The notes under the pieces: generated by a model
Database searches by the model: none
Seen by the model: the letters and a program-made list of their open reading frames with translations, nothing else
What the model was told of the DNA's origin: nothing
Shown: positions 637-13,333 of the stretch, in pieces
How the letters are laid out: the number at the start of each line of letters is the position of its first letter
How positions within the stretch are numbered: position 1 is the first letter of the stretch
Assembly: GCA_023406985.1 (NCBI GenBank)
Contig: JAEXTK010000293.1
Location: 1 to 13,333 of the forward strand
Length of the DNA stretch: 13,333 nucleotides
Direction: 5' to 3'
Source of the DNA: Spirochaetota bacterium
GTDB lineage: Bacteria > Spirochaetota > Spirochaetia > Treponematales > Breznakiellaceae
Position numbers and translations under genes: made by a program

Positions 637-720
637 CGGAGCGGCGCTCGCGGAGCGGCGCGCAGCGAGTCGCCCTCAGGGAGCGGCGCTCACGGAGCGG
701 CGCTCACGGAGCGGCGCGGA
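637..720. repeat. Six tandem copies of a 14-bp unit (consensus CGGAGCGGCGCTCA), each with palindromic core GAGCGgCGCTC. Copy 3 is degenerate.
   Basis: Read directly from the sequence. The units are 637-650, 651-664, 665-678 (degenerate), 679-692, 693-706 and 707-720. The array overlaps the last five codons and the stop (704-706) of the minus-strand response regulator, then continues into its 3' flank. Confidence 0.85.
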
Positions 721-2311: not shown

Positions 2312-2321
2312 AACCCGGAGG

Positions 2322-2330
2322 ATTATACCA
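2322..2330 (-). promoter_or_regulatory. Putative extended -10 (TGnTATAAT) for the response-regulator gene, implying a near-leaderless transcript
   Basis: The minus-strand sequence reads ...gatgGTGGTATAATcctccgggttATG. The perfect TATAAT lies 10 nt upstream of the ATG at 2311. No SD is seen. Confidence 0.35.
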
Positions 2331-2346
2331 TCGATCCGGACTCTCA

Positions 2347-2375
2347 TTGACGCCGGGCTGAGCGGATACGATACT
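2347..2375 (+). promoter_or_regulatory. Putative sigma70-type promoter for the histidine kinase (TTGACG -35, 17-nt spacer, GATACT -10)
   Basis: TTGACG at 2347-2352 and gATAcT at 2370-2375 with a 17-nt spacer. The region is AT-rich relative to the genome. SD GAGGTG (2389-2394) lies 6 nt before the ATG at 2401. Confidence 0.3.
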
Positions 2376-2400
2376 TTTAAAAAACAGTCGAGGTGCCCCG

Positions 2401-3549
2401 ATGGGTGATGCCGGTCTATTCGCGTACGTGAAGATCCAGGGAGCGCAACAACTCGTCACGGTTCCGATTTCCTCGGGAAAGCCCGAAGTCGCCGATGCCG
2501 TGCAGGAACGATGGCAGGGCGTCGTCGACCTCGTCGCCGGCATACTGCACGTGCCGACCGGGCTCATCACCCATCTCACGACCACCGACCTGGAGATATT
2601 CGTCGCGAGCCGGACCGCGGGAAATCCCTACAAACGCGACGACAAGGACAAGCTCGGGATCGGCATGTTTTGCGAATCCGTCGCCGGGACCCAGCGGCGC
2701 CTCTTGGTCGCCGATACCGAGAGCTCGGCTTACTGGAAAAACAACCCGCACGCCGCCCTGGGGATGCGCGCCTACCTGGGCGTCCCCATCCGTTGGGAAG
2801 ACGGGGAACTCTTCGGCACCTTCTGCATGCTGGACGAGAAGGCGAATTCCTTCTCCGCCGAGTTCATCGATTTGATGGAGCGCTTCAAGGACATCATCGA
2901 ATCCGATCTCCGGTACCTCCTCCTCTACAAGGACCTGGAAAGACGCCTATCCGCCAGCCAGATGGAGCTCCGGGAGATCCACCATCGGCTCAAGAACCAA
3001 TTCAACATCCTGACCAGCTACATCAGCCTCCAGTCGCAGGTAGGGCGCCCCGAGAATCTGCAGGATACCCTCAAGGAAATCCAGCACCGGATCATGGCCC
3101 TCTCCATCATCCACGACGAGCTGTACCGGTCCGACGGGATGACCTTGCCCTCGCTGGACGTGTATCTCCCCCGTCTCTGCCGCTACATCCTGGAGGACTT
3201 CGCCGACGCCGACGTGGACGCCGCCTACTCCATCGCCGATCTGGATCTCCCCATGAACGCCGCGATTTCCATCGCGATCATGGTCTCCGAGCTGCTCACC
3301 AACTCCATCAAGCACGCGTTCACCGCGACGCAGGAAAAGAGGATCAGCCTCACGGTCCAACGGACGGACGCGGGACCCGTCTCCCTCGTCTACCGCGACA
3401 ACGGAAGGGGACTCCCCGCCGGCTTCGATCCCGCCACGGCCCCCTCGCTCGGCATGACCCTGCTCAACGCCCTCAGCGCGCAGCTCGGCGGCTCGATGCG
3501 CGCCGCCAACGACGGCGGCGCCGTCTTCATTTTCGAATTGTCGCTTTAG
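2401..3549 (+). CDS. Soluble sensor histidine kinase: N-terminal GAF-like domain + HisKA_2 dimerisation/phospho-acceptor + HATPase_c
   Basis: H-box EIHHRLKNQFNILTSYISLQS (HisKA_2 type). N-box SELLTNSIKHAF. G1 box YRDNGRGLPAGFD. G2 box GMTLLNALSAQLGGS. No TM segments. The N-terminal 180 aa have GAF-like composition. SD GAGGTG upstream. Confidence 0.85.
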   Translation: MGDAGLFAYVKIQGAQQLVTVPISSGKPEVADAVQERWQGVVDLVAGILHVPTGLITHLTTTDLEIFVASRTAGNPYKRDDKDKLGIGMFCESVAGTQRRLLVADTESSAYWKNNPHAALGMRAYLGVPIRWEDGELFGTFCMLDEKANSFSAEFIDLMERFKDIIESDLRYLLLYKDLERRLSASQMELREIHHRLKNQFNILTSYISLQSQVGRPENLQDTLKEIQHRIMALSIIHDELYRSDGMTLPSLDVYLPRLCRYILEDFADADVDAAYSIADLDLPMNAAISIAIMVSELLTNSIKHAFTATQEKRISLTVQRTDAGPVSLVYRDNGRGLPAGFDPATAPSLGMTLLNALSAQLGGSMRAANDGGAVFIFELSL

Positions 3550-3609
3550 AAGAACCCGCCGGAGCGTTATATTGAACCGTGCCGACAGGTATAAAATCCG
3601 GAGGAAAAT

Positions 3610-5235
3610 ATGTTCGTCGACCGCCTGCTGAAGCATTACCCGAATCCGGACTATGAGCTCAGGTCCAAGATGACCATCTTCGCCGCCCTTTCGCTCTTCT
3701 CGGCGGCCCTCGCTCCGGTCATCGGGACCATCGATATATTCGCGGGGGCCGAGCCCGCCATCATCGTCATGGAGTTCGTCTTCCTCCCCGTGATCCTGGC
3801 CCCGCTCTTCCTCGCCATCCGCGGCCGCTACGACCTCGGCGTCGCGCTCTACCTCGTCCTGCTCGACCTGGTCTTCCTCGCGACCACCCTGGTCCTGCCC
3901 GTCTACAATCCCGAGATCATCTATAAATACGCCTTCTACCTGATCCTCTCCCAGCTCTTGGGCCTCGTCATAGCCCGCGACAAGAGTTCCATCATCGCGA
4001 ACCTCGTCCTGAACGCGGGATCCCAAGTGCTCGTATTCGTCCTGCTCGGCCTCGCGCCCGCCCACGCGGACCTCCGCGGCCTCTCCACGACGGCCTTCGT
4101 CGAGACGACCATGATGCTCGCCTTCACGAGCTTCCTCTCCCTCCGCGGCTCGCGCATCTTCTCCCACGCCATCGACATGGCGCGGAGCGAGGCGGAACGG
4201 TCCCGGGCCCGTGCCGCGGGGATGGAGCAGGCGGTGGCGGCGGCCCGGTCCAGCTTGGACGTGGGCAGGGAGCTGTTGGCCATATCCAAGAAGATCGAGG
4301 CCCTGACGGTCGAACGGGAACGGAGCATGCAGGAGCTGGAGTCCCTGTCCGCGGCGTTCCAGGCCCGCCTGGACCAACTCGCGGAAGAAAACCGAAAGCT
4401 CCGTAACACCGCTTCCGACAGCGAGACGATACTCGGCGCCCAGGAACGGGCGATCGAAGAGACGAACGGCGCGGTCGGCGGCGTGTCGGAGGCCATAGCC
4501 GCGGCCCAGGCCATGGCGCAGCAGCGGCGCGCCGCGGTCCAGGCCCTGCTCGCGGCCTCGGAAGAGGGCGTCAAGCGCCGCGCCGAGGTGACGAAGGCCC
4601 TGGAAAAACTCGGCGAGAGCATCCAGGGCGAGATGACCTTCGTCGGCCTCATAGAGGACGTGGCGTCGCGCACCAACCTCCTGGCCATGAACGCCTCCAT
4701 CGAGGCGGCCCACGCGGGCAACGCGGGACGGGGGTTCTCGGTCGTCGCGGCCGAAATCCGTAAACTCGCGGAGCGAAGCACGGAGGAGACCAAAGGCATC
4801 GCCGCGGTGGTGGCCGCGAACCGGGATTCCCTCGGACGTACGGGGCAGGCGAACGTGGAGGCGGAGGCGCAGTTCGGCACCCTCGTCGGGGAGGCCAAGG
4901 AAGTGGCGGAGGCGATGGGCGAACTCCTCGACCGCCTCTCCGGCATGTCGCGCGGGGCGCACCTCATCGACGGCAAGGTGCGCGACCTCCTCAGCACCTC
5001 CCAGCGGTTCGACGCGGCGTTCAAGGAGATCATCGCGATCTCGGGCAGCAACGACGCCGAATTCGCGGAGATGCTGCCCTTCTTCCGCGATCTTTCCTCC
5101 CGCGTTTCCGCCGACCTGGCCGCGATGCAGGCCATCGGCGAGGAGGCTCGGCGGATTGCGGAAGCCGGGAAACGCAACGCGGAGCGGACCGAGGCCCTCA
5201 ACGCCGCCATGGCCGCCCTCGCCCCGGATCGGTAG
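3610..5235 (+). CDS. Methyl-accepting chemotaxis protein with polytopic (approx 6-TM) N-terminal membrane domain
   Basis: Highly conserved MCP signalling motif [43 protein letters not shown]. Ala/Glu-rich coiled-coil heptads surround it. N-terminal 185 aa are hydrophobic with multiple TM helices. SD GGAGG 5 nt before the ATG. Confidence 0.9.
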
Positions 5236-5283
5236 CGCGCGGGACGGTAGCGCCGCTGCGGGGAACGAGGCTATAAAAGGTTC

Positions 5284-6195
5284 ATGATGAACCAAACCGA
5301 AAAGTCCTCGTTCTCCGCCGTGGCCCTGGGCGCCGTCGTCCTCGTGACCGCGATCTGGGGTTTCAATTTTATCGTGATCAAGGTCGGCGTCGCGGGCGTC
5401 CCGCCGCTGCTCCTCGCCTCACTGCGGTTCGCGCTGAGCGCCTTCCCGGCCCTGCTCTTCGTGAAGAAACCCCAAGCCTCCTGGCTATCGCTCGCCGCCT
5501 ACGGGCTCCTCCTCGGCGTCGGCGAATTCGGCCTCCTCTTCACCGCCATGAAGCTCGGCGCTCCCGCGGGCCTCTCTTCCATAATTCTCCAGGCCCAAGC
5601 CTTCTTCACCGCCCTGGTCGCCGCGGCGGCGCTCAAGGAAAAGCTCCATATCCACAACTTCGCCGGCATGGCGGTCGCGGGCGGCGGCCTCGCGCTCATC
5701 GCGCTCTCGGGCCGCAGCGGGCCGGCCCCGGCCCTGACGGCGGGGCTCACCGCCATGATCCTCCTCGCGGCCTTCTTCTGGGCGCTCGCGAACGTCGTCG
5801 CGCGGCGGATGCCCAAGACCGACGGCCTCTCGCTCATGGTCTGGTCCAGCCTCTTTTCGCCCCTGCCCCTCCTCGGCCTCTCCTTCGCCTTGGAAGGAAA
5901 GGAGGCCATAGCAGCGGCCTTCTCCGGCCTCGCGCCCGTCTCCATCGGCGCCCTCGCCTACCTCGTCCTCCTGTCCACGCTCTTCGGCTACGGCGCGTGG
6001 AACCAGCTCATCATGCGCTACGGCGCGAGCCGCGTGGCGCCGTTTTCCCTCCTCGTGCCCATCTTCGGGGTGAGTTCGGGCGCCCTCGTGCTCGGCGAGC
6101 GCTTCTCCGTCCTCGACGCCGCGGCGGCCGGCCTCGTACTCGCGGGCCTCGCCCTCCACGTGTTCGGGGGACGACTCCGCAAGACCCCGGCCTGA
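5284..6195 (+). CDS. EamA/DMT-family (RhaT-like) 10-TM permease
   Basis: 303-aa protein. Two tandem halves, each with 5 hydrophobic segments typical of duplicated EamA domains (...GFNFIVIKVGV... / ...WALANVVARRMPKTDG...). The start is a tandem ATGATG preceded by TATAAAA (5272-5278). Confidence 0.8.
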   Translation: MMNQTEKSSFSAVALGAVVLVTAIWGFNFIVIKVGVAGVPPLLLASLRFALSAFPALLFVKKPQASWLSLAAYGLLLGVGEFGLLFTAMKLGAPAGLSSIILQAQAFFTALVAAAALKEKLHIHNFAGMAVAGGGLALIALSGRSGPAPALTAGLTAMILLAAFFWALANVVARRMPKTDGLSLMVWSSLFSPLPLLGLSFALEGKEAIAAAFSGLAPVSIGALAYLVLLSTLFGYGAWNQLIMRYGASRVAPFSLLVPIFGVSSGALVLGERFSVLDAAAAGLVLAGLALHVFGGRLRKTPA

Positions 6196-6210
6196 AGGAC
6201 CGGCGGCCGA

Positions 6211-6239
6211 TCGGCGCGGCGGATCGACGCCGGCGCCGA
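6211..6239. terminator. Possible GC-rich bidirectional hairpin between convergent genes (no U-tract)
   Basis: tcggcgcggcg / gatcga loop / cgccggcgccga forms an 11-bp stem with one bulge. It lies between the EamA stop (6195) and the hydrolase stop (6249). This is a weak call. No T-run, as expected in 70% GC DNA. Confidence 0.2.
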
Positions 6240-6248
6240 CAGACGCCC

Positions 6249-7052
6249 CTAGGGAGTCTTGATCCAGTCCCGAACGAGGGCGGCCGTCTCGTGCGCCCGC
6301 TCGTCGAAGGGGAAGAGGTGGCCCGCGCCGGCGAGCCGTACGGCCTGGAACGACGAGGCTGCCTTGGCCCGCTGGCGGACCAGGTCGGCCACCTCCGCGG
6401 GAACGACGGGGTCCTCCGCTCCCACGATCACGAGGACGCGGGAGCGGAGGTCGCGTAGGCGGCTACCGCAGGCCAGCATGAGCCTGCCGAGCTCGGCGGC
6501 GGGAGCCACGAGGTCGTCGGCCCAATACTCGCCGTGAAGGGTTTCCCGGATCGGGTCCCCCCGGTCCCCCGCGGCGAGGGGCCGGTCGCGCCGCAGCACC
6601 GGCCGCACCAGACCTACGAGCCGCGCGAGCGTGAGGTTCTGGCCCGTCACCTTGAACGCCGGGGCGAGCAGCGCGAGCTTGGGGGCGCCGAAGGCGGCGG
6701 CCACGGCCGTGGCCAGGAGGCCGCCCATGGAGTGGCCGACCACGTGGACGGTGGGGTACGCGGCGCGGAGGTCCATGTACGCGTCGAAGGCCCGCCGCGC
6801 CCAGTCCTCGGCCCGGGTCAGCATGAGGTCGGCCCTGCTGGTCCCGTGTCCCGGATAGCGCGGCGCCGAGACGGCGTAGCCTTCGGCGGCCAAGGAGGCC
6901 GCGATGACGGACAATTCCGAGGGATTCCCCGTGAACCCGTGGAGGAGGAGCACGGCTTCCTTCGCGCCCGCGGGATCTTCCCGTATGGGCAAAACGTCCC
7001 GTATGGGCCGCGTTTCGGGCGCCGTCCGTAAAAGAGCTTCCAAGCGTGTCAT
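6249..7052 (-). CDS. Alpha/beta-hydrolase fold carboxylesterase/lipase-like protein
   Basis: Oxyanion-hole motif LLLHGFTGNP. Nucleophile elbow VVGHSMGGLLA (G-x-S-x-G). C-terminal AGHLFPF contains the His of the triad. Similar in size (267 aa) and organisation to Est30-type esterases. No convincing SD before the ATG at 7052. Confidence 0.8.
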   Translation of the reverse strand: MTRLEALLRTAPETRPIRDVLPIREDPAGAKEAVLLLHGFTGNPSELSVIAASLAAEGYAVSAPRYPGHGTSRADLMLTRAEDWARRAFDAYMDLRAAYPTVHVVGHSMGGLLATAVAAAFGAPKLALLAPAFKVTGQNLTLARLVGLVRPVLRRDRPLAAGDRGDPIRETLHGEYWADDLVAPAAELGRLMLACGSRLRDLRSRVLVIVGAEDPVVPAEVADLVRQRAKAASSFQAVRLAGAGHLFPFDERAHETAALVRDWIKTP

Positions 7053-7107: not shown

Positions 7108-7158
7108 TTGACACATTGTACTAGTTCAATTAGCATTGTACTAGATGAATAGTACAAT
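7108..7158 (+). promoter_or_regulatory. Promoter (TTGACA-17-TAGCAT) for the GntR gene, overlaid by three copies of ATTGTACTA (two direct, one inverted). The inverted pair forms a perfect 9-6-9 palindrome spanning the start codon, so this is a probable autoregulatory operator and the transcript is leaderless.
   Basis: TTGACA is at 7108-7113 and TAGCAT at 7131-7136. ATTGTACTA occurs at 7115-7123 and 7135-7143. Its inverse TAGTACAAT is at 7150-7158, with spacer gATGaa containing the ATG at 7145. The predicted TSS at ~7143 lies 2 nt from the ATG. Confidence 0.45.
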
Positions 7159-7540
7159 CGCGAGCCGAGGCGTGGCATTCGGCCTGGACGCGTCGAGCGG
7201 GGTACCGTTCTACCGCCAGATCATCCAGCAGATCGAGCGCGCCATCCTCGCGCGGAAGCTCGAACCGGGGGATCGGCTGCCGACGATCAGGGCTCTCGCC
7301 GTGGAGCTCAAGATCAACCCCAACACCATCGCCCGGGCCTACGGCGAGCTGGAGATACGCGGCATCGTCGTCACCCAGGTCGGCAGCGGGACGTACATCT
7401 CGGACCAGAGACCTGAGCGCGAGGACGCGCGCGCCAAGAAACTCGCCGAGGTCGTGGCCCGGTTCGTTCGCGACACGGAGGCCCTGGGCGCGGACAGGGA
7501 CGAGGCGATCCGGCTCGTCCGCGAGTTCAAGGAGGACTGA
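7145..7540 (+). CDS. GntR-family transcriptional regulator, short YtrA-like subfamily
   Basis: The protein is 131 aa. The N-terminal winged HTH is FYRQIIQQIERAILARKLEPGDRLPTIRALAVELKINPNTIARAYGELEIRGIVVTQVGSGTYIS. The C-terminal extension is short (~50 aa), typical of YtrA-type regulators that control adjacent ABC transporters. Confidence 0.85.
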   Translation: MNSTIASRGVAFGLDASSGVPFYRQIIQQIERAILARKLEPGDRLPTIRALAVELKINPNTIARAYGELEIRGIVVTQVGSGTYISDQRPEREDARAKKLAEVVARFVRDTEALGADRDEAIRLVREFKED

Positions 7541-7541
7541 C

Positions 7542-8720
7542 ATGTGGTCGTTTCGGAAAAACAGCGAAGAGCCTCTCGTCCATAACCCCCGGCGCCCCGA
7601 ACGCCGCGTTGATTTCTCCATCAACGCCGTCGGCCTCATCCTCTTCTGCGCCCTCGTCGTCTTCACGCTGGCCGCCCGCCTCCTCGCGGGAGCGCGGCCG
7701 TCCGCCCTCGATTTCGGCGCCCTCGTCGCGACGCCGGTCGCCACGGTCGCCGTCATGTCGCTCTTCCCCCGCTGGGTCACCGCCGTGAAGTTGTTGATCC
7801 TGGTCGCCTGCGCGGGCGCGGCGTGGGCCCTCGTCGACTCGGGCCTGCTCCTCGCCTTCGCCGCGGCGGGCGCCCTGCTGGCGCCGGCGGTCCAGAAGCT
7901 GGAAGAATGGGAGCGGGCCATCGTCCTCCGCTTCGGCCGCTTCCACCGCGTCCGGGGGCCGGGGCTCTACCTGCTCCTGCCCTTCGCCGATCGCGCGGCC
8001 AAGACCGTGGACCTCCGCATCCGGGTGACCGACTTCAGCGCCGAGACCACCCTGACCCGGGACTCGGTCACGGTGACCGTGGACGCCCTCTGCTTCTGGC
8101 TCGTCTGGGACGCCGAGAAGGCGGTCCTGGAAGTCCAGGACTACGAGGAGGCCGTGGTGCTGTCCGCCAAGACGGCCCTCCGCGCCGCCATCAGCCGGAA
8201 CAACCTCACCGCCTTCCTGGAGCAGGGGAACGAGATCGAGAACCAGATCCGCGCGGACGTGGATATGAAGACCACCGAGTGGGGCATCACCGTCCAGCAC
8301 ATCGAGATCACCGATATCCAGATACCCGAGCAGCTGCAGGACTCCCTCTCCCGCCTCGCCCAGGCGGAGCGGGAAAAGATGGGGCGCGTGCTCCTGGCCG
8401 AGGCGGAGATCGAGATCGCCCATCGCCTGGAGACCGCGGCCAAGATCTACGAAAAGAACGACCTCGCCATGAAGCTCAAGACCCTCTCCATCCTCAACGA
8501 GGGCCTCAAGGCGGGCAATTCCATGATGCTCGTCCCCAACTCGATCACCGAAGAATTGAAATCGAAGGACCTTTTCGGCCTGCAGGCGCTCACCGAGACG
8601 CGGCTCCACGCGGAAGGCAAGCGGCCGCGGAATCGCGCCGGCCAACCCTCCAGTAACGCACCGGGGCGGCCGCAGGATGTATCTTCCGAACCCAAGGAGG
8701 ACGGCCATGACCGTCGTTAA
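7542..8720 (+). CDS. SPFH/band-7 (stomatin/prohibitin/HflK-like) membrane protein with a 4-TM N-terminal region and a disordered basic C-terminal tail
   Basis: SPFH core: EEWERAIVLRFGRFHRVRGPGLYLLLPFADRAAKTVDLRIRVTDFSAETTLTRDSVTVTVDALCFW...ISRNNLTAF...DVDMKTTEWGITVQHIEITDIQIPEQLQDSL...AQAEREK. It is followed by a coiled-coil (AEAEIEIAH). Four hydrophobic helices precede the SPFH domain. GGAGG lies 6 nt before the ATG. The ATG sits 1 nt after the GntR stop. Confidence 0.8.
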   Translation: MWSFRKNSEEPLVHNPRRPERRVDFSINAVGLILFCALVVFTLAARLLAGARPSALDFGALVATPVATVAVMSLFPRWVTAVKLLILVACAGAAWALVDSGLLLAFAAAGALLAPAVQKLEEWERAIVLRFGRFHRVRGPGLYLLLPFADRAAKTVDLRIRVTDFSAETTLTRDSVTVTVDALCFWLVWDAEKAVLEVQDYEEAVVLSAKTALRAAISRNNLTAFLEQGNEIENQIRADVDMKTTEWGITVQHIEITDIQIPEQLQDSLSRLAQAEREKMGRVLLAEAEIEIAHRLETAAKIYEKNDLAMKLKTLSILNEGLKAGNSMMLVPNSITEELKSKDLFGLQALTETRLHAEGKRPRNRAGQPSSNAPGRPQDVSSEPKEDGHDRR

Positions 8721-9432
8721 CGCAAGAGACCTCGTGAAGGATTATTCCCTCAACGGGATTACGGTGAACGCCCTGCGGGGCGTGAGCCTCTCGTTCGAGG
8801 CGGGCGAGTTCGCCGCCGTGGCCGGCCCCTCGGGGAGCGGGAAATCGACCTTCCTGCACCTCGTCGGCTGCCTGGACACGCCGACGGCGGGCTCCATCTC
8901 CATAGACGGCACCGACGTGGCGTCCTTGAGCCGGAAGGACCTGGCCCTGCTCCGCAGGCGGAGCATCGGCTTCATCTTCCAGGCCTACAACCTCATCCCG
9001 GTGCTGACCGCCCTGGAGAACGTTTCCCTGCCGCTCACGCTGCTCGGCGTGGACCGGGAGGAGACGCGCGGCAGGGCGGAGCGGGCGCTCGCGGACGTGG
9101 GCCTGGCCGACATGGGGAAGCGCAAGCCCAAGGAGATGTCGGGCGGCCAACAACAGCGCGTCGCCATAGCCCGCGCGCTCGTGAAGCGGCCGGCCCTCAT
9201 CCTGGCCGACGAGCCCACGGCGAACCTGGACTCCAAGACCGGCAAGGAGATCCTGGAGCTCATGCTCGACCTCAACCGGACCGCGGGCACGACCTTCATC
9301 TTCTCCACCCACGACAAGATGGTCATGGAGTACGCGCGGCGCCTCGTGCTCCTCAAGGACGGAAGGGTGGATGCGGAGACGGTGCGGGACGCGGCAGGCG
9401 CGGAGGCCGTAGCCGCGGGAGCCGCGCGATGA
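8707..9432 (+). CDS. ABC transporter ATP-binding protein, LolD/MacB-NBD/FtsE-like
   Basis: Walker A GPSGSGKST. Q-loop IGFIFQ. Signature MSGGQQQRVAIARAL. Walker B LILADEPTANLD. H-loop FSTHD. I chose the start at 8707 (AAGGAGG 6 nt upstream) over the ORF-track start at 8677. The CDS overlaps the SPFH gene 3' end by 14 nt. Confidence 0.9.
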   Translation: MTVVNARDLVKDYSLNGITVNALRGVSLSFEAGEFAAVAGPSGSGKSTFLHLVGCLDTPTAGSISIDGTDVASLSRKDLALLRRRSIGFIFQAYNLIPVLTALENVSLPLTLLGVDREETRGRAERALADVGLADMGKRKPKEMSGGQQQRVAIARALVKRPALILADEPTANLDSKTGKEILELMLDLNRTAGTTFIFSTHDKMVMEYARRLVLLKDGRVDAETVRDAAGAEAVAAGAAR

Positions 9433-11159
9433 CCGCCGCGGCGTTCCGGGACCTCGCGGGGATGGCGCTCCGCAATCTCGCGCGGCATAAGGTCAAGACG
9501 ATCATCACGACCATCGCCGTGGCCATCAGCGTCGCCCTCTACATCTTCATGGACGCGTGGCTGCTCGGCATGAACCTGGACTCCCGCCGGAACATCGTCT
9601 CCTACGAGATCGGCGCCGCGAAAGTCCAGAAGGCCGCGTACTTCGACAAGAAGGACGAGCTGCCCATGTACGAGAGTTTCGGCGGCTGGGAAGAGCTCGC
9701 GGCCGCGCTCGCCGCGGCGGGGTACGATTCGGCGCCCCGCTTCGTGTTCACGGGCACCCTCTACTCCCGCTCGGGTACCGCGCCCATCGTGTTCAACGCC
9801 GTGGACGTGGAGCGGGAGGCGAAGCTCCTCCGCTACCCCGCCTACCTCGAGTCCGGCCGCTTCCCCGCCGCGGGAAAGCGCGAAATCGCCATCGGCACCT
9901 TCGCGGCGGAGAAGCTCCGCGTCGGCATCCCGACCCGGCCCACCCGCGACGAATTCGAGGACGACCTCCTCGCCGCGGCCGCGACCGCGGAGGACGCGGC
10001 CTTCGTCCGGAGCCTCTACGGGCCGCCGCCGCCGCCCAAGAAGCAGGCCTTTTCCAACCCTGATCCCGCTTTGCGCTCGCTCGCGGCGGAGAAGCTCGCC
10101 CTCAAGGAGGGCGCGACCGCCGCTGAACTCGACCGCCTCTGGCGCATCCTCTCGGAATCCGGCCGCATGGATGTCCGCATCGCCACCACCATCGACCTCA
10201 AGGCCGCCCCGGAAATCATCCGCAAGGAAAAGTTCGAGGGGGAACTCCTCGCGAAACTAGAAGGGAGCGCCCGCGAGCGGCTCCGCGCCGCCTACGCGGC
10301 GGACGAGATCACCGGGGACTACCGCCTCGTCGCCGTCGACGAGGCGGAGGTGGCCGCGGTACTCGCGGATCTGCTGGCGATCGACTTCTCGGGGGCCGTA
10401 CGGCACGTGAACCAGCTCGTGGACGCCGTAGTCGTCGGCGTCGTCAACTCGCCCAACCCCAAGACGAACGGCAACGTCGCCTTCCTGCCCCTGGACGCCT
10501 TGCAGGACGAATCGGGCCTCATGCTCCAGGGCGCGGCGACCGAGCTCCTCGTGCGGAAGGCCGGCGCGGACGACGCGCGCCTGCCGGGCAGGGACGAGTC
10601 GGCGGAGGCGATCGAGGCGGCCCTCGCCTCCCGCCTGGGGGGGAAGCTCCCGGAAGGCCTCGTCGTGCGGCCCTGGATCGATTATGTATCCGATTACCTC
10701 GCGGCCGCGGCGGGCGACAACGTGTCCTCGCGGGTCATGATCTTCTTCCTCTTCGTCCTCTCCTTCATCGGGATCGCCAACACCATGCTCATGGCCATCC
10801 TGGAACGGACCAAGGAGACGGGCATGCTCCGCGCCCTCGGCATGACGGACGGCCAGGTCCTCCTGGCCTACGTGCTGGAGGCCGCCTGCATCGGCGCCCT
10901 CGGATCCGCGGTCGGCATCGTCGCGGGGTGCCTCATGAACATCCCGATGGTGGAACACGGCATCGATTATTCGGCGATGTCCAAGGAATTGGGCGGCGAC
11001 TTCGGCTACCGCATCACCGCGTTCTTCCGATCCGCCTGGAATCCCCCGGCCATCGCGCTCACCGGCGTCTTCGCGACCCTGCTCTCCGCGGCGGCCGCGA
11101 TCCTGCCCACCCGCAGGGCCCTCAAGATGCCCGTGACCGACAGCCTGCGGTTCGAATAG
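9429..11159 (+). CDS. FtsX/MacB/LolC-E-type ABC permease with a ~380-aa periplasmic domain between TM1 and TM2
   Basis: N-terminal LRNLARHKVKTIITTIAVAISVALYIF (TM1). C-terminal 3-TM FtsX block: ...MIFFLFVLSFIGIANTMLMAILERTKETGMLRALGMTDGQVLLAYVLEAACIGALGSAVGIVAG... The start overlaps the ATPase stop (ATGA). Confidence 0.85.
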   Translation: MTAAAFRDLAGMALRNLARHKVKTIITTIAVAISVALYIFMDAWLLGMNLDSRRNIVSYEIGAAKVQKAAYFDKKDELPMYESFGGWEELAAALAAAGYDSAPRFVFTGTLYSRSGTAPIVFNAVDVEREAKLLRYPAYLESGRFPAAGKREIAIGTFAAEKLRVGIPTRPTRDEFEDDLLAAAATAEDAAFVRSLYGPPPPPKKQAFSNPDPALRSLAAEKLALKEGATAAELDRLWRILSESGRMDVRIATTIDLKAAPEIIRKEKFEGELLAKLEGSARERLRAAYAADEITGDYRLVAVDEAEVAAVLADLLAIDFSGAVRHVNQLVDAVVVGVVNSPNPKTNGNVAFLPLDALQDESGLMLQGAATELLVRKAGADDARLPGRDESAEAIEAALASRLGGKLPEGLVVRPWIDYVSDYLAAAAGDNVSSRVMIFFLFVLSFIGIANTMLMAILERTKETGMLRALGMTDGQVLLAYVLEAACIGALGSAVGIVAGCLMNIPMVEHGIDYSAMSKELGGDFGYRITAFFRSAWNPPAIALTGVFATLLSAAAAILPTRRALKMPVTDSLRFE

Positions 11160-11168
11160 GAGTCCTCT

Positions 11169-12443
11169 ATGGAAAAGACCGTAACCGAGCGCGGCGGAAT
11201 CGCCGCCCTCGTCACGATAGCGTACCGGAACATCTGGCGGAACGGCCGGCGGACCGCGCTCTGCGTCGTCGCCGTGGCCATCGCCGTCTTCTTCAACATC
11301 TTCATGGGATCCTGGATGGACGGCATGATGACGGGCATCGAGGAGGTCGTGCGGACCTACGAGACGGGCCACGTCAACGCGGTGACCGAAAAGTTCGAGG
11401 AGGATCGGGAATACTACCCGGTCCAGTTCCCCATTGCCGGCGGCCGCGCCTCCGACGAACTCGTCGCCGAGCTGGAGGCCATCCCCGGGGTGCAGGCCGC
11501 CCTGCCGCGGATCACCGCCTACGCGACCCTCTTCGACAGCAACGTGAAGCACGCCCTCCTCTGGGGCGTGGACATCGAAAAGGAGCGGAAGGTCAACCAT
11601 CTCAACCTCACCGACCGCGACGACGGCCTCGTTTCGGGGCGCTTCCCCGCGGCGGGGGCGAACGAGTGCATGATCGGCGCCGAGATGGCGCGGAAAACCG
11701 GCCTCGGCGTGGGGGACCGCCTACCCTTCAAGACCGTATCCGCCCAGTTCTCGGACAAGTACCTGAGCCCGGCCATCGTCGGCATCTTCGAATTCGATTA
11801 CCGCAAATTCGACGAGGACGTCGTCCTCCTTCCCCTGGACCGGTTGCAGCGCATCCTCGTGCTCGACGGCGGAACCCAGCAACTGTTCGTCTACGCCGAC
11901 GACGCCCGCGAGAGCGCGCGGATCAAGGTCCAGGTGGAGAAGGTCTTGGGAGAAGGCCACGTCGTGCGGGAATGGGGGGACAACTACTGGGTCGCCATGA
12001 TGCGGCAGAGTTCCTTCATGTTCCTCATCATCTTCGGCGTGTTCCAGATCGTGGCCAGTTTCCTCATCATCAACACGGTCCTCATGGTGATCCACGAACG
12101 CATCAAGGAGATCGGCATGATGGGCGCGCTCGGGATGACCCGGCGCGAGATCGTGCTCGTCTTCTTCTTCGAGGCGGTGTTCCTGAGCGTGTTCGGGGCG
12201 CTCGCGGGCTGCGCCGTCGGGGGCCTCGTGACGCGGATCGGGTCCTACTTCCCCATCGACATGCAAGTCTTCACCGGCGGCGGCATGAAGGACATGCCGG
12301 TCTCCGGCACCATCTTCCTGGATTTCTCGCCCGCGGGCATCGGCCGGAGTTTCCTCTTCGGGGTGGCGGTCTCGGGGGCGTGCACGCTCATCCCCTCGCT
12401 CAAGAGCGCCTTCATCGAACCCGTGGAAGCCCTCCGCCGTTGA
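11169..12443 (+). CDS. Second FtsX/LolC-E-type ABC permease (approx 225-aa periplasmic domain)
   Basis: TM1 is ALCVVAVAIAVFFNIFMGSW. FtsX block: FMFLIIFGVFQIVASFLIINTVLMVIHERIKEIGMMGALGMTRREIVLVFFFEAVFLSVFGALAGCAVGG. SD AGGAG lies 6 nt upstream. A 9-nt gap separates it from the preceding permease. Confidence 0.85.
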   Translation: MEKTVTERGGIAALVTIAYRNIWRNGRRTALCVVAVAIAVFFNIFMGSWMDGMMTGIEEVVRTYETGHVNAVTEKFEEDREYYPVQFPIAGGRASDELVAELEAIPGVQAALPRITAYATLFDSNVKHALLWGVDIEKERKVNHLNLTDRDDGLVSGRFPAAGANECMIGAEMARKTGLGVGDRLPFKTVSAQFSDKYLSPAIVGIFEFDYRKFDEDVVLLPLDRLQRILVLDGGTQQLFVYADDARESARIKVQVEKVLGEGHVVREWGDNYWVAMMRQSSFMFLIIFGVFQIVASFLIINTVLMVIHERIKEIGMMGALGMTRREIVLVFFFEAVFLSVFGALAGCAVGGLVTRIGSYFPIDMQVFTGGGMKDMPVSGTIFLDFSPAGIGRSFLFGVAVSGACTLIPSLKSAFIEPVEALRR

Positions 12444-12474: not shown

Positions 12475-13245
12475 ATGAACGATACGTTTCGCGGTATTCC
12501 CCGCATGAACTTCCCGGCGGCGGCCGCCGTCTTGACGCTCGCGTTGATCGCCTTCCCTGCGGCGGCCGCCCCGACCGCGGCCGAGCTGCTCGCGAAGGTG
12601 GACGAGAACGAGGTGTACGACAGCATCGCCTACAAGGGCGAGATGATCATCGAGTACCAGGGCAAGCGCTTCGTCAAGAAGTTCGAGGCGGCCGGGAACG
12701 GCGAACAGGACAGCTTCGTGGAGTTCGTGAACCCCGAGGACAAGGGGACCAAGTACCTCAAGAAGGACGGACGGCTCTACGTGTATTCGCCCGATACCGA
12801 AGAGGTCATGCTCATCTCCGGCCATCTGCTCAAGGAATCGATGATGGGTTCGGACATGTCGTACGAGGATACGATCGACAACGAGAAACTGTCGGCCCGC
12901 TACGTCCCGACGCTCGCGGGCACGGAAGCCTACGAGGGGAGGCAGGCCTACCTCCTGGACCTCGCGGCCAAGAAGAAGACGGAGAGCTATCCGCGGCAGA
13001 AGCTCTGGATCGATACGGAGACGGGCGACCTCCTCCACTATGAGCTCTTCGCCCTCTCGGGCGCCAAGCTCAAGGAGTACAAGCTCATCCGCGCCGAGCT
13101 CATCGGGAAGCGCCGCTTTCCCGTGGAGGGAGAGATGCGCGACCTCCTCCGCAAGGGCAGCCGCACCCTCTTCCGCATGTACGACGTGAAGCTGGACGTC
13201 GCCATCCCCGACTCCACCTTCAGCCTCAGGAACCTGGAACGATGA
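12475..13245 (+). CDS. Secreted LolA-like / outer-membrane lipoprotein-sorting-protein-like periplasmic protein
   Basis: Signal peptide MNFPAAAAVLTLALIAFPAAAAP with no lipobox Cys, so it is soluble periplasmic. ~230-aa mature beta-rich domain with alternating hydrophobic/polar strands (YKGEMIIEYQGKRFVKKFEAAG...KLWIDTETGDLLHYELFALSGAKLKEYKL). This matches the LolA-like family commonly encoded next to FtsX permeases. SD AAGGAGA is 5 nt upstream. Confidence 0.65.
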   Translation: MNDTFRGIPRMNFPAAAAVLTLALIAFPAAAAPTAAELLAKVDENEVYDSIAYKGEMIIEYQGKRFVKKFEAAGNGEQDSFVEFVNPEDKGTKYLKKDGRLYVYSPDTEEVMLISGHLLKESMMGSDMSYEDTIDNEKLSARYVPTLAGTEAYEGRQAYLLDLAAKKKTESYPRQKLWIDTETGDLLHYELFALSGAKLKEYKLIRAELIGKRRFPVEGEMRDLLRKGSRTLFRMYDVKLDVAIPDSTFSLRNLER

Positions 13246-13333
13246 GGGCGCGCGATCGTTTCGGCGCGGCGGCGCGCGGCGCGGCCCCCCGCACCCTTCT
13301 CGCGGCCCTGGTCCTGGCCACGGCGGCGGGCCC
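13242..13333 (+). CDS. 5' end of a gene encoding a putative exported protein, truncated by the window end
   Basis: The ATG overlaps the LolA-like stop (ATGA). The N-terminus MRARDRFGAAARGAAPRTLLAALVLATAAG looks like a signal peptide. Only 30 codons are visible. Confidence 0.3.
   Translation, partial: MRARDRFGAAARGAAPRTLLAALVLATAAG

What the first reader, a model, noticed from the sequence alone, without database searches (positions are those of the whole stretch)
7542..8720. SPFH/band-7 protein with a 4-helix membrane anchor inserted between a repressor and its transporter
Typical bacterial stomatins (QmcA/YbbK) have a single N-terminal hairpin. HflK/C and flotillins are also mono- or bitopic. 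This protein has four predicted TM helices before the SPFH domain and ends in a long basic disordered tail (KRPRNRAGQPSSNAPGRPQDVSSEPKEDGHDRR).

It sits between the GntR stop (1-nt gap) and the ABC ATPase (14-nt overlap), which implies stoichiometric co-production with the transporter. SPFH proteins form oligomeric cages that corral membrane complexes (HflK/C around FtsH), so an SPFH ring organising an FtsX-type extractor would be a new pairing.
Basis: partly seen in the sequence, partly recalled or inferred. Interest (0 to 1): 0.5.

Follow-up and report, generated by a model that had tools for sequence, protein, structure and literature searches.

The report
Four-helix stomatin in a spirochaete export operon
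This is a real stomatin-type membrane scaffold protein with an unusual four-helix anchor, and it always sits next to a small repressor gene and usually ahead of a Lol-like envelope exporter in spirochaetes, giving a concrete but untested candidate for what a bacterial stomatin works with.

Summary
ORF 7542-8720 (+) encodes a 392-aa SPFH/Band-7 protein that aligns with human stomatin from the membrane hairpin to the C-terminal oligomerisation motif.

Four hydrophobic helices (about residues 29-49, 55-74, 76-96, 101-118) precede the SPFH domain. The 1-nt gap to the GntR stop and the 14-nt overlap with the ABC ATPase start are exact.

The pairing is not a local accident. In 80 spirochaete genome loci a YtrA-like GntR gene lies directly upstream in 75/75 testable cases. 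An ABC ATPase lies directly downstream in 60/69. The full unit has seven genes: GntR, SPFH, LolD-like ATPase, two FtsX permeases, a LolA-like carrier and an 18-strand outer-membrane barrel. An almost invariant promoter-operator cassette precedes it.

The interpretation needs correcting:
- Charge distribution predicts a cytoplasmic SPFH domain, as in stomatin and QmcA, not a periplasmic HflK/C-like cage.
- A two-helix anchor variant occupies the same operon type.
- The basic tail is not conserved.
- GntR-SPFH and the transporter behave as separate evolutionary modules.

I found no description of this system in the literature searched. The mechanism, scaffold for the exporter versus membrane partner of the repressor, is inferred only.

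The parts
7108..7136 (+). Sigma-70-like promoter of the operon: -35 TTGACA at 7108-7113, 17-nt spacer, -10 TAGCAT at 7131-7136
   Evidence: Consensus scan gives 10/12 matches. The same TTGACA...TAnnAT arrangement sits at the same distance from GntR in nearly all related loci.
7115..7158 (.). Candidate GntR operator: ATTGTACTAG box at 7115-7124 between -35 and -10, plus the palindrome ATTGTACTA-N6-TAGTACAAT at 7135-7158, which spans the ATG at 7145
   Evidence: Inverted repeats found. A TGTAC/GTACA core lies in the upstream region of 73/75 related loci, with the boxes at near-constant offsets in most, while flanking intergenic DNA is unrelated. The exact palindrome TTGTACTA-N4-8-TAGTACAA occurs in 44 of 87 loci. 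The cassette is duplicated ahead of the ABC gene in L045. A single box lies ahead of the orphan transporter in L087. Binding by GntR is inferred, not shown.
7145..7540 (+). Short YtrA-like GntR-family repressor, 131 aa. The gene caller's alternative start is GTG 7172, giving 122 aa
   Evidence: Pfam GntR PF00392 matches residues 23-85 at E=3e-17. Only about 45 residues follow the HTH. Best NCBIfam hits are Rv1152 and PmtR, both below cut-off. It lies directly upstream of the SPFH gene in 75/75 loci.
7542..8720 (+). The finding: a stomatin-type SPFH (slipin) protein of 392 aa
   Evidence: Pfam Band_7 at E=4e-36. Best solved relatives are human stomatin at E=4e-35, PH1511 at 2e-29 and QmcA at 3e-27. 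There are 1097 homologues. The top 120 are 327-434 aa and, apart from one partial protein attributed to a Magnetospirillaceae MAG, all named sources are Spirochaetota. Several are annotated 'slipin family protein'.
7542..7619 (+). K/R-rich N-terminal tail, residues 1-26, with the conserved PL[IV]KN...RRDF motif; predicted cytoplasmic
   Evidence: Column statistics over 117 homologues: K/R exceeds 50% at positions 5, 6, 14 and 21-23, and D24 and F25 are invariant.
7620..7895 (+). Four-helix membrane anchor, residues 27-118: H1 29-49, H2 55-74, H3 76-96, H4 101-118
   Evidence: Supported by hydropathy, family conservation and AF2 helices. Acidic loops at residues 57 and 99 and basic R77, K83 and K119 fit an N-in/C-in topology.
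7704..7829 (+). Extra hairpin H2-H3, residues 55-96, with conserved P65 and the turn F75-P76-R77-W78 plus K83. This is the part absent from the two-helix class
   Evidence: W78 is invariant. P65, F75, P76, R77 and K83 are each at least 90% conserved. A P-x-W core persists in 4-TM members at 39-47% identity. Two-helix relatives keep the N-tail RDF motif and the final ...S[IV][QR]K motif but lack this stretch.
7899..8414 (+). SPFH/Band-7 domain, residues 120-291
   Evidence: Pfam. Foldseek gives PH1511 stomatin core with TMt 0.72 and mouse stomatin SPFH with TMt 0.65-0.71.
8328..8558 (+). Long coiled-coil helices (263-305, 307-323) and the conserved C-terminal motif A-G-N-S-M-M-L-V-P (323-332)
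   Evidence: AF2 secondary structure. The query stretch G-N-S-M-M-L-V-P (325-332) aligns to stomatin K-N-S-T-I-V-F-P at the end of the co-linear match. G325, S327, L330 and P332 are invariant in 117 homologues. That this stomatin motif drives oligomerisation is from my own knowledge, not a tool result.
8610..8717 (+). Non-conserved, low-confidence C-terminal tail, residues about 357-392. Its last codons hold the SD (8694-8701) and ATG (8707) of the ABC gene
   Evidence: pLDDT is below 50. Length and sequence vary in the family. Junction sequence shown.
8707..9432 (+). LolD/MacB-like ABC ATPase, 241 aa from ATG 8707; an in-frame ATG at 8677 is less likely
   Evidence: Pfam ABC_tran. NCBIfam LolD TIGR02211 scores 230 bits, below its cut-off of 308. 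The gene caller uses the start equivalent to 8707.
9429..11159 (+). FtsX-family permease 1, 576 aa, with an enlarged periplasmic domain
   Evidence: Pfam FtsX at E=4e-19. MacB_PCD scores 26.5 bits, just under the 27-bit cut-off.
11169..12443 (+). FtsX-family permease 2, 424 aa, LolC/E-like
   Evidence: Pfam MacB_PCD and FtsX. NCBIfam lolCE scores 107 bits, below its cut-off of 362.
12475..13245 (+). LolA-like (PF17131, 'TP_0789-like') periplasmic protein, 256 aa. It has an N-terminal hydrophobic signal-like segment and no lipobox cysteine
   Evidence: Pfam E=9e-44. Sequence.
13242..13333 (+). Start of gene 7, which runs off the window. In the identical contig L081 the full product is 419 aa and is predicted to be an 18-strand outer-membrane beta-barrel
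   Evidence: ATGA overlap with the LolA-like stop, then a signal-like N-terminus. The gene follows the LolA-like gene in 37/40 loci. AF2 pLDDT is 92.6, all-beta, ending ...RLRF. Foldseek top hits are MOMP, chitoporin, AlgE and OprD/Occ barrels at E about 1e-12 to 1e-10.

Best explanation
The gene encodes a stomatin-type (slipin) SPFH protein of a clade seen so far almost only in Spirochaetota. It is the second gene of a conserved seven-gene unit.

The first part of the unit is a two-gene cassette: a YtrA-like GntR repressor and the SPFH protein. It is transcribed from a promoter overlapped by a highly conserved TTGTACTA-N6-TAGTACAA operator. The second part is an export module. It comprises a LolD-like ATPase, two LolC/E-like FtsX permeases, a LolA-like periplasmic carrier and an 18-strand outer-membrane barrel.

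The SPFH protein is predicted to be anchored by two helical hairpins (four helices). Both ends and the whole SPFH, coiled-coil and C-terminal-motif portion would lie in the cytoplasm. By homology it most likely assembles into a stomatin- or QmcA-like multimeric dome on the cytoplasmic face of the inner membrane, fencing off a membrane patch.

My preferred mechanism is that this dome scaffolds the co-regulated Lol-like ABC extractor. It could enclose it or flank it, affecting its assembly, stability or activity while the exporter moves a hydrophobic cargo (lipoprotein or lipid) to the carrier and the barrel.

Shown here: protein identity, the four hydrophobic helices, the gene junctions, the synteny, the shared operator and the barrel fold prediction. 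Inferred: topology, oligomerisation, the transporter as client, and the cargo.
For: Identity:
- Band_7 at E=4e-36.
- Co-linear match to human stomatin from the membrane hairpin to the C-terminal NS(T/M)..P motif.
- Foldseek top hits are stomatin and PH1511.

Anchor and topology:
- Four hydrophobic helices.
- K/R on the N-tail, R77/K83 and K119 sides, with D/E in loops 1 and 3.
- The crude hydrophobic-span measure falls into two size classes consistent with two or four segments, never an obviously odd number. An even number keeps the SPFH domain on the N-tail side.
- One GntR-HTH::2TM::SPFH fusion protein also requires a cytoplasmic SPFH domain, but it is a singleton.

Linkage:
- GntR is upstream in 75/75 loci and ABC downstream in 60/69.
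- The same order holds for 4-TM members at 40-43% identity and in a locus found through the barrel protein.
- SPFH stop to ABC start overlaps or lies within 15 nt in 46/65 loci.
- The same promoter-operator cassette drives GntR-SPFH, and in L045 and L087 also the transporter module.

Precedent: SPFH cages enclose membrane proteins. HflK/C encloses FtsH, and stomatin encloses AQP1 and UT-B in a dome about 140-160 Å wide and about 100 Å high (PMC12407830).
Against: There is no experimental or modelling evidence for any SPFH-transporter contact.

GntR-SPFH and the transporter behave as separable modules:
- 9 loci have the pair alone.
- L087 has the transporter and barrel alone.
- About 9 loci combine a near-identical SPFH (80-86% in the domain) with a very different transporter paralogue (ABC 51-55%, FtsX2 26-30%).
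- SPFH identity correlates with GntR (rho 0.56) but not with ABC (-0.02), FtsX2 (0.18) or the LolA-like protein (0.21). The transporter genes correlate with each other at 0.75-0.81.

A closed cytoplasmic dome around the ATPase subunits would have to allow nucleotide exchange.

The AF2 model of the SPFH protein is only moderate (pLDDT 64), and the first part of the SPFH domain is poorly modelled.

A related Borrelia MacB plus LolA-like cluster is described without any SPFH gene (PMC13078400).
Confidence: 0.42

Rival explanations
1. GntR-SPFH is a signalling cassette. YtrA-type repressors lack an effector-binding domain (own knowledge). In this model the membrane-embedded SPFH oligomer is the sensor or anti-repressor. 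It binds or releases GntR according to membrane or exporter state, as PspA does with PspF. The export module is merely the regulated output.
For: - GntR and SPFH are adjacent in 75/75 loci, with a 1-nt gap in the window.
- The pair persists intact with its operator where no transporter follows (L036, L037, L049, L057 and others).
- The transporter can stand alone behind an operator box.
- The pair is combined with two very different transporter paralogues, and SPFH identity tracks GntR, not the transporter.
- The GntR protein is only 131 aa, with about 45 residues after the HTH.
- One GntR::TM::SPFH fusion protein exists.
- The predicted cytoplasmic orientation puts the SPFH domain and N-tail in the repressor's compartment.
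Against: - No SPFH protein is known to control a bacterial transcription factor.
- The fusion is a single protein on one 2.4-kb contig. A 1-nt indel could create it.
- Co-variation of neighbouring genes can reflect linkage alone. The duplicated operator cassette could itself be the recombination point that separates the modules.
Confidence: 0.27
2. The SPFH protein is a general membrane-integrity or microdomain effector. It belongs to the same stress regulon but has no specific partner among the operon's products.
For: - Stand-alone GntR-SPFH pairs exist.
- The SPFH domain is very conserved (67-95% identity) whatever transporter is downstream.
- YtrA-type regulons respond to envelope stress in other bacteria (own knowledge).
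Against: - The pair lies ahead of a Lol-like module in 60/69 loci and in members at 40% identity. That is hard to explain without a functional tie.
- Translational coupling to the ATPase is frequent.
- The extra H2-H3 hairpin carries an invariant W78 and near-invariant P76, R77 and K83 in the close set, with only a P-x-W core at 39-47% identity. That pattern suggests a specific contact.
Confidence: 0.18
3. The four-helix N-terminus is an annotation artefact: a wrong start codon, with the real protein an ordinary one- or two-helix slipin.
For: A two-helix class exists in the same operon type.
Against: - A strong SD, AGGAGGA, lies 5 nt before ATG 7542.
- The N-tail motif PL[IV]KN...RRDF and all four segments are conserved as protein sequence in 117 homologues.
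- The pattern holds in members at 39-47% identity.
- Gene callers on three independent contigs use the same start.
Confidence: 0.02

Closest known systems
Stomatin and prokaryotic slipins (human stomatin 16-mer, 9oh9/9wmj; P. horikoshii PH1511; E. coli QmcA-YbbJ 26-mer, 8z5g)
   Same: - Best sequence and fold matches.
- The match is co-linear through the membrane segment, SPFH domain, coiled coil and C-terminal NS..P motif.
- The predicted cytoplasmic orientation matches stomatin. It also matches QmcA, whose orientation is from my own knowledge.
   Different: - Four membrane helices instead of a monotopic hairpin or a single helix. PMC12407830 states that SPFH proteins have a single TM or intramembrane segment.
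- No NfeD partner gene. No PF01957 hit appears among the called genes of L081.
- The gene is embedded in a GntR/ABC-exporter operon.
HflK/C-FtsH
   Same: An SPFH assembly with a dedicated membrane-protein client.
   Different: - Only distant similarity (E about 1e-7; TIGR01933 scores 65 bits against a cut-off of 159).
- HflK/C is a hetero-oligomer with a periplasmic cage.
- The protein here is a single gene, predicted to face the cytoplasm.
LolCDE-LolA lipoprotein extraction, and the Borrelia BBJ23-29 cluster (MacB-like ABC, LolA-like protein, Omp85-family barrel; PMC13078400)
   Same: - Type VII ABC architecture, with FtsX and MacB_PCD domains.
- A LolD-like ATPase and a LolA-like carrier.
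- An outer-membrane barrel encoded in the same cluster.
   Different: - All Lol equivalog scores fall below their cut-offs.
- The barrel is porin/AlgE/OprD-like, not Omp85.
- Neither E. coli Lol nor the published Borrelia cluster includes an SPFH or GntR gene.
YtrA-subfamily GntR repressors that autoregulate ABC exporter operons (B. subtilis ytrABCDEF; S. aureus PmtR-pmtABCD)
   Same: - A short GntR protein with a minimal C-terminal part.
- It is the first gene of an ABC exporter operon.
- A palindromic operator with a GT...AC core overlaps the promoter.
   Different: - Below cut-off for the PmtR and Rv1152 models.
- An SPFH gene is invariably inserted after the repressor, which is not a feature of the described YtrA operons (own knowledge).
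PspA-PspF (functional analogy for the rival model only)
   Same: A membrane-associated oligomer encoded next to, and possibly controlling, its own transcription factor.
   Different: - The fold and family are unrelated.
- PspF is an activator.
- No evidence here for an SPFH-GntR contact.

Membership tests
SPFH / Band 7 superfamily (PF01145) | Match to the Pfam model above its gathering score | tested here: met
   125.1 bits against 23.6, E=4e-36, residues 120-291.
Stomatin / slipin subfamily | Closest to stomatins rather than HflK/C, prohibitin, erlin or flotillin, and co-linear from the membrane segment to the C-terminal motif | tested here: met
   Human stomatin E=4e-35 over query 94-332. 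PH1511 2e-29, QmcA 3e-27, HflK 7e-8, prohibitin and erlin about 4e-5. Homologues are named 'slipin family protein' by NCBI.
Stomatin / slipin subfamily | A single monotopic hairpin or single N-terminal helix as membrane anchor | tested here: not met
   Four hydrophobic helices are predicted. H3-end and H4 align to the stomatin hairpin. H1 to H3 are extra.
Prokaryotic stomatin-NfeD pair (QmcA-YbbJ, PH1511-PH1510) | An NfeD-family gene in the same operon | tested here: not met
   No NfeD (PF01957) hit among the called genes of the 18.7-kb identical contig L081, nor among the six window proteins scanned.
SPFH cage-formers | Assembly into a closed multimeric ring or dome | not testable with these tools
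   Only single-chain prediction was available. The coiled-coil helices and the invariant G325, S327, L330 and P332 motif are present. That is compatible with assembly but is not a test.
HflK / HflC | NCBIfam equivalog score above cut-off | tested here: not met
   TIGR01933 scores 65.3 against 159.4. TIGR01932 scores 44.3 against 134.4.
   Hydropathy, family charge pattern and AF2 helices all agree. H2 and H4 are short (16-18 hydrophobic residues). No dedicated topology predictor or experiment was available.
LolCDE lipoprotein-release transporter (downstream genes) | NCBIfam equivalog scores for LolD and LolC/E above cut-off | tested here: not met
   LolD scores 229.8 against 307.75. lolCE scores 107.3 and 51.5 against 362.45. 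The genes are Lol-like paralogues, not the housekeeping Lol system.
MacB-type (type VII) ABC transporter (downstream genes) | An FtsX C-terminal permease domain plus a MacB-like periplasmic core domain | tested here: met
   Permease 2: MacB_PCD 62 bits and FtsX 59.8 bits. Permease 1: FtsX 69.5 bits, with MacB_PCD at 26.5 bits just under the 27-bit cut-off.
YtrA-like GntR repressor (upstream gene) | A GntR HTH with a very short C-terminal part, and a palindromic operator at its own promoter | tested here: met
   HTH at residues 23-85 of 131 aa. Operator palindrome conserved across loci. Equivalog models Rv1152 and PmtR fall below cut-off. DNA binding was not tested.
Known anti-phage defence systems (PADLOC) | Any PADLOC model hit for the SPFH, GntR or LolA-like proteins | tested here: not met
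   No hits for these three proteins. The ATPase and the two FtsX permeases gave only generic ABC-ATPase and LolE-like TM hits.

The most novel reading that the evidence does not exclude
The SPFH dome is the missing sensor of an effector-domain-less YtrA-type repressor. In this reading the GntR-SPFH cassette is a portable membrane-state switch. The four-helix anchor, with its conserved cytoplasmic FPRW...K turn, reads lipid or exporter load. The cytoplasmic SPFH assembly then sequesters or releases GntR, switching on whichever Lol-like trans-envelope exporter carries the TTGTACTA-N6-TAGTACAA operator. This would be the first SPFH protein shown to act in bacterial transcriptional signalling.
Probability: 0.2. 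Interest if true: 0.8.

Novelty: new variant of a known kind. Interest (0 to 1): 0.55.

Why it matters
What bacterial SPFH proteins act on is largely open beyond HflK/C-FtsH and the NfeD pairs. This locus offers a genetically hard-wired candidate. A stomatin-type protein is always paired with a small repressor and usually with a Lol-like exporter spanning the inner membrane, periplasm and outer membrane. The arrangement is conserved in dozens of sampled spirochaete species, including cultivable ones.

It also shows that the SPFH membrane belt can be built from four helices per subunit rather than one segment. That should change the geometry and lipid content of the fenced patch.

The nearly invariant operator gives a direct handle for regulation experiments. 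The modular pattern (pair alone, exporter alone, or both) makes the two mechanistic models separable by simple genetics.

Tried and rejected
1. A cleaved signal peptide or lipoprotein instead of helix 1. Rejected: a 26-residue charged N-tail, a 21-23-residue hydrophobic core, and no conserved AXA or lipobox.

2. A wrong start codon. Rejected: strong SD, conserved N-tail motif, and the same start on three contigs.

3. The antisense ORF 7527..8708 as the real gene. Rejected, because all homology lies on the + strand.

4. HflK/C membership. Rejected on scores.

5. An NfeD partner, or an NfeD-derived N-terminus. No NfeD gene is nearby. Homology of the N-terminal helices to NfeD membrane parts was not tested.

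6. A defence-system role. PADLOC gave no hit for the SPFH, GntR or LolA-like proteins and only generic ABC-ATPase and LolE-like TM hits for the transporter proteins.

7. I first took L079 to be a second, paralogous cluster on the window's own contig, because both contigs are 49,362 bp long. A k-mer check showed no shared sequence, so that claim is withdrawn. One MAG (assembly JAIRLK01) does carry both anchor classes on separate contigs: L032 has about four segments and L048 about two.

8. The GntR::SPFH fusion P0177 as Rosetta-stone evidence. Downgraded: it is a singleton on a 2.4-kb contig.

9. The gene-7 products of the window lineage and of the distant locus L084 show no sequence similarity. 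Only the window-type barrel is characterised.

10. Literature searches gave nothing on this pairing. They covered TP0789; SPFH with MacB and LolA-like; YtrA with stomatin, slipin or flotillin; PF17131; and SPFH with ABC transporter, operon and spirochete.

11. Whether T. pallidum TP0786-TP0789 has an SPFH neighbour could not be checked.
Full report
**1. What is in the sequence**

ORF 7542..8720 (+) encodes 392 aa. Pfam Band_7 matches residues 120-291 at E=4e-36. The mirror ORF on the minus strand (7527..8708) has no support.

- The GntR gene ends with TGA at 7538-7540. One base follows, then ATG at 7542, with AGGAGGA at 7530-7536.
- The ABC ATPase starts at ATG 8707 behind AAGGAGGA at 8694-8701.
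- The SPFH gene ends with TAA at 8718-8720, giving a 14-nt overlap.

The window matches three metagenomic contigs almost exactly (L081-L083), with 9 mismatches to L081 over 13.3 kb. Its genome is not among the GTDB species representatives scanned. The nearest is a Spirochaetes MAG, L001, with SPFH at 82% identity.

**2. The membrane anchor**

Hydropathy gives four peaks. In 117 homologues the same four segments recur with conserved punctuation:
- a K/R-rich N-tail with PL[IV]KN...RRDF;
- an acidic loop 1 (G-x-x-P-S-x-x-D/E-F-G);
- the turn F75-P76-R77-W78 followed by K83;
- an acidic loop 3;
- P115-x-V-Q-K leading into the SPFH domain.

AlphaFold2 predicts helices 29-49, 55-74, 76-96 and 101-118 at pLDDT 65-77. 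The whole model reaches only pLDDT 64, and the first part of the SPFH domain is poor.

The positive-inside rule then places the N-tail, the FPRW...K turn and the SPFH domain in the cytoplasm. This is a prediction, not a demonstration.

The basic tail (about 357-392) has low confidence, a net charge of about +3, and is not conserved. Its last codons carry the ribosome-binding site of the next gene.

**3. Which SPFH protein it is**

The best solved relatives are human stomatin (E=4e-35, query 94-332), PH1511 and QmcA. HflK/C, prohibitin and erlin are far weaker. The stomatin alignment runs from the second half of the membrane region through the SPFH domain and coiled coil. It ends where GNSMMLVP pairs with stomatin KNSTIVFP. 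Foldseek agrees.

So H3-end and H4 correspond to the stomatin hairpin. Comparison with two-helix relatives indicates that the H2-H3 hairpin is the added element.

HflK/HflC equivalog models fail. No NfeD gene is nearby.

**4. How common the anchor is**

A profile-free scan of 1.84 billion representatives found 12,385 relatives. Among the nearest 150, a crude hydropathy count gives two segments in 67, one in 35, four in 14 and three in 9.

The four-segment class keeps a P-x-W turn down to 39-47% identity. The anchor is therefore a conserved minority architecture, not a one-off. It differs from every solved SPFH assembly, each of which has a single segment per subunit (PMC12407830).

**5. Gene context**

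A scan of species-representative genomes returned 80 loci, all Spirochaetota. They include Breznakiella, Brucepastera, Treponema primitia and many termite-gut and sediment MAGs. tblastn with the window's proteins gave the following:

| Neighbour of the SPFH gene | Loci with it / loci testable |
|---|---|
| GntR directly upstream | 75/75 |
| ABC ATPase directly downstream | 60/69 |

The order GntR, SPFH, ABC, FtsX, FtsX, LolA-like holds wherever the contigs are long enough. Exceptions are nine termite-gut Treponema loci where the GntR-SPFH pair stands alone, followed for example by PFOR and glycosyltransferase genes in L057.

Two 4-TM members at 40-43% identity sit in the same operon (L084, L085).

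A seventh gene follows the LolA-like gene in 37/40 loci. It begins at window 13242 with an ATGA overlap. Its product has no Pfam hit and only 'hypothetical' homologues. It models with pLDDT 92.6 as an all-beta protein ending in ...RLRF. Its best structural matches are 18-strand outer-membrane barrels: MOMP, chitoporin, AlgE and OprD/Occ. The unit therefore spans the whole envelope.

**6. Regulation**

Upstream of GntR lies TTGACA-17-TAGCAT at 7108-7136, with ATTGTACTAG boxes at 7115-7124 and 7135-7144 and the inverted TAGTACAAT at 7150-7158.

This cassette of about 50 bp is almost invariant at the DNA level in related loci whose flanking DNA is unrelated. A TGTAC/GTACA core lies in the upstream region of 73/75 loci. 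The exact palindrome occurs in 44 of 87 loci.

In L045 a full copy lies between the SPFH and ABC genes. In L087 a transporter-plus-barrel module without GntR-SPFH still has an ATTGTACTAG box before its ATPase gene.

I infer autoregulation by the GntR protein and a shared regulon. Binding was not tested.

**7. Two modules**

Identity to the window's proteins across loci shows this pattern:

| Pair compared | Spearman rho |
|---|---|
| SPFH domain vs GntR | 0.56 (p=2e-7) |
| SPFH domain vs ABC | -0.02 |
| SPFH domain vs FtsX2 | 0.18 |
| SPFH domain vs LolA-like | 0.21 |
| ABC, FtsX2 and LolA-like vs each other | 0.75-0.81 |

About nine loci join an SPFH that is 80-86% identical in the domain to a very different transporter paralogue (ABC 51-55%, FtsX2 26-30%).

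This proxy is crude and linkage could contribute. The duplicated operator cassette might itself be the recombination point. Even so, together with pairs standing alone and an exporter standing alone, it shows that GntR-SPFH is the tighter unit.

**8. Mechanism**

By homology the protein should form a stomatin- or QmcA-like dome, here predicted on the cytoplasmic face, with a belt of four helices per subunit.

- *Preferred model (0.42).* The dome scaffolds the co-regulated Lol-like extractor. Precedents are HflK/C with FtsH and stomatin enclosing AQP1 and UT-B.
- *Main rival (0.27).* The dome is the membrane sensor or anti-repressor for the effector-less GntR protein. This model better explains the modular pattern but has no precedent among SPFH proteins.
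- *General stress-effector role (0.18).* This remains possible.
- *Artefactual N-terminus.* This is very unlikely.

**9.

The pairing with an FtsX-type system is real, conserved and, as far as the searchable literature shows, undescribed.

Four points do not hold: the periplasmic HflK/C picture, the stoichiometry argument, the importance of the basic tail, and the necessity of four helices. The closest partner is the repressor.

**10. Novelty**

This is a new variant of a known kind: a stomatin-family protein with a doubled hairpin anchor, fixed in a repressor-scaffold cassette that precedes a Lol-like trans-envelope exporter. I score interest at 0.55. There is solid comparative evidence and clear experiments to do, but no functional data.

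Noticed in passing
window 7108-7158: A promoter-plus-operator cassette (TTGACA, ATTGTACTAG, TAnnAT, TTGTACTAG-ATG-AATAGTACAA) is conserved almost base for base upstream of GntR across related loci whose surrounding DNA is unrelated. The palindrome is centred on the ATG at 7145, 8 nt after the -10 hexamer. GntR may therefore be translated from a leaderless mRNA. If instead the GTG at 7172 is the true start, the conserved 'MNST' N-terminus would only reflect the operator.
   Followed up: partly
window 13242-13333 (full gene in L081:13236-14495): A seventh operon gene overlaps the LolA-like stop by ATGA. Its 419-aa product has no Pfam hit. It is predicted with pLDDT 92.6 to be an 18-strand outer-membrane beta-barrel, closest to MOMP, chitoporin, AlgE and OprD. 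It is conserved after the LolA-like gene in 37/40 loci.
   Followed up: yes
L045:1740-1830; L087:5480-5525: In L045 the whole promoter-operator cassette is duplicated between the SPFH and ABC genes. Its central ATG is replaced by ATA, and an SD plus the ABC start follow. In L087 an ABC-FtsX-FtsX-LolA-like-barrel module lacking GntR-SPFH keeps one ATTGTACTAG box before its ATPase gene. This suggests control in trans.
   Followed up: partly
L003, L005, L009-L012, L021, L023, L042: These loci combine a GntR-SPFH pair very close to the window's (SPFH domain 80-86% identical) with a strongly divergent transporter set (ABC 51-55%, FtsX2 26-30%, LolA-like 42-46%). L021 and L023, the two of these loci with enough sequence downstream to test, have no detectable window-type barrel. 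This indicates module shuffling.
   Followed up: partly
P0177 (representative-library protein, 421 aa): A single metagenomic protein fuses a GntR HTH (Pfam E=2e-11) to two hydrophobic helices and an SPFH domain. It is a singleton on a 2.4-kb contig. It could be a genuine fusion or a 1-nt indel artefact at a GntR/SPFH junction like the one in the window.
   Followed up: partly
L032 and L048 (both assembly JAIRLK01): One termite-gut Treponema MAG carries both a four-segment and a two-segment SPFH gene, each behind its own GntR gene. Paralogous cassettes can therefore coexist in a genome.
   Followed up: no
window 9429-11159: Permease 1 is 576 aa against 424 aa for permease 2, and against 414-422 aa for the permeases in distant operons L084 and L085. 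It carries a long, alanine- and glutamate-rich periplasmic insertion with a PPPPP run. Its MacB_PCD match falls just under the Pfam cut-off.
   Followed up: no
window 7816: The window has G where the otherwise identical contig L081 has T. This gives G92 instead of V92 in helix 3 of the SPFH protein. It is a strain-level polymorphism at a variable column.
   Followed up: no
window 704-7052: The upstream neighbours look unrelated to the operon and are not conserved next to it in other loci. They are an AraC-type response regulator, a GAF/HWE histidine kinase, a methyl-accepting chemotaxis protein, an EamA transporter and an alpha/beta hydrolase on the opposite strand.
   Followed up: no
L079 versus L081: Two different contigs, GenBank JAFGIM010000099.1 and ENA NODE_71, have exactly the same length (49,362 bp) but share no 30-mers. 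Equal contig length is not evidence of identity.
   Followed up: yes
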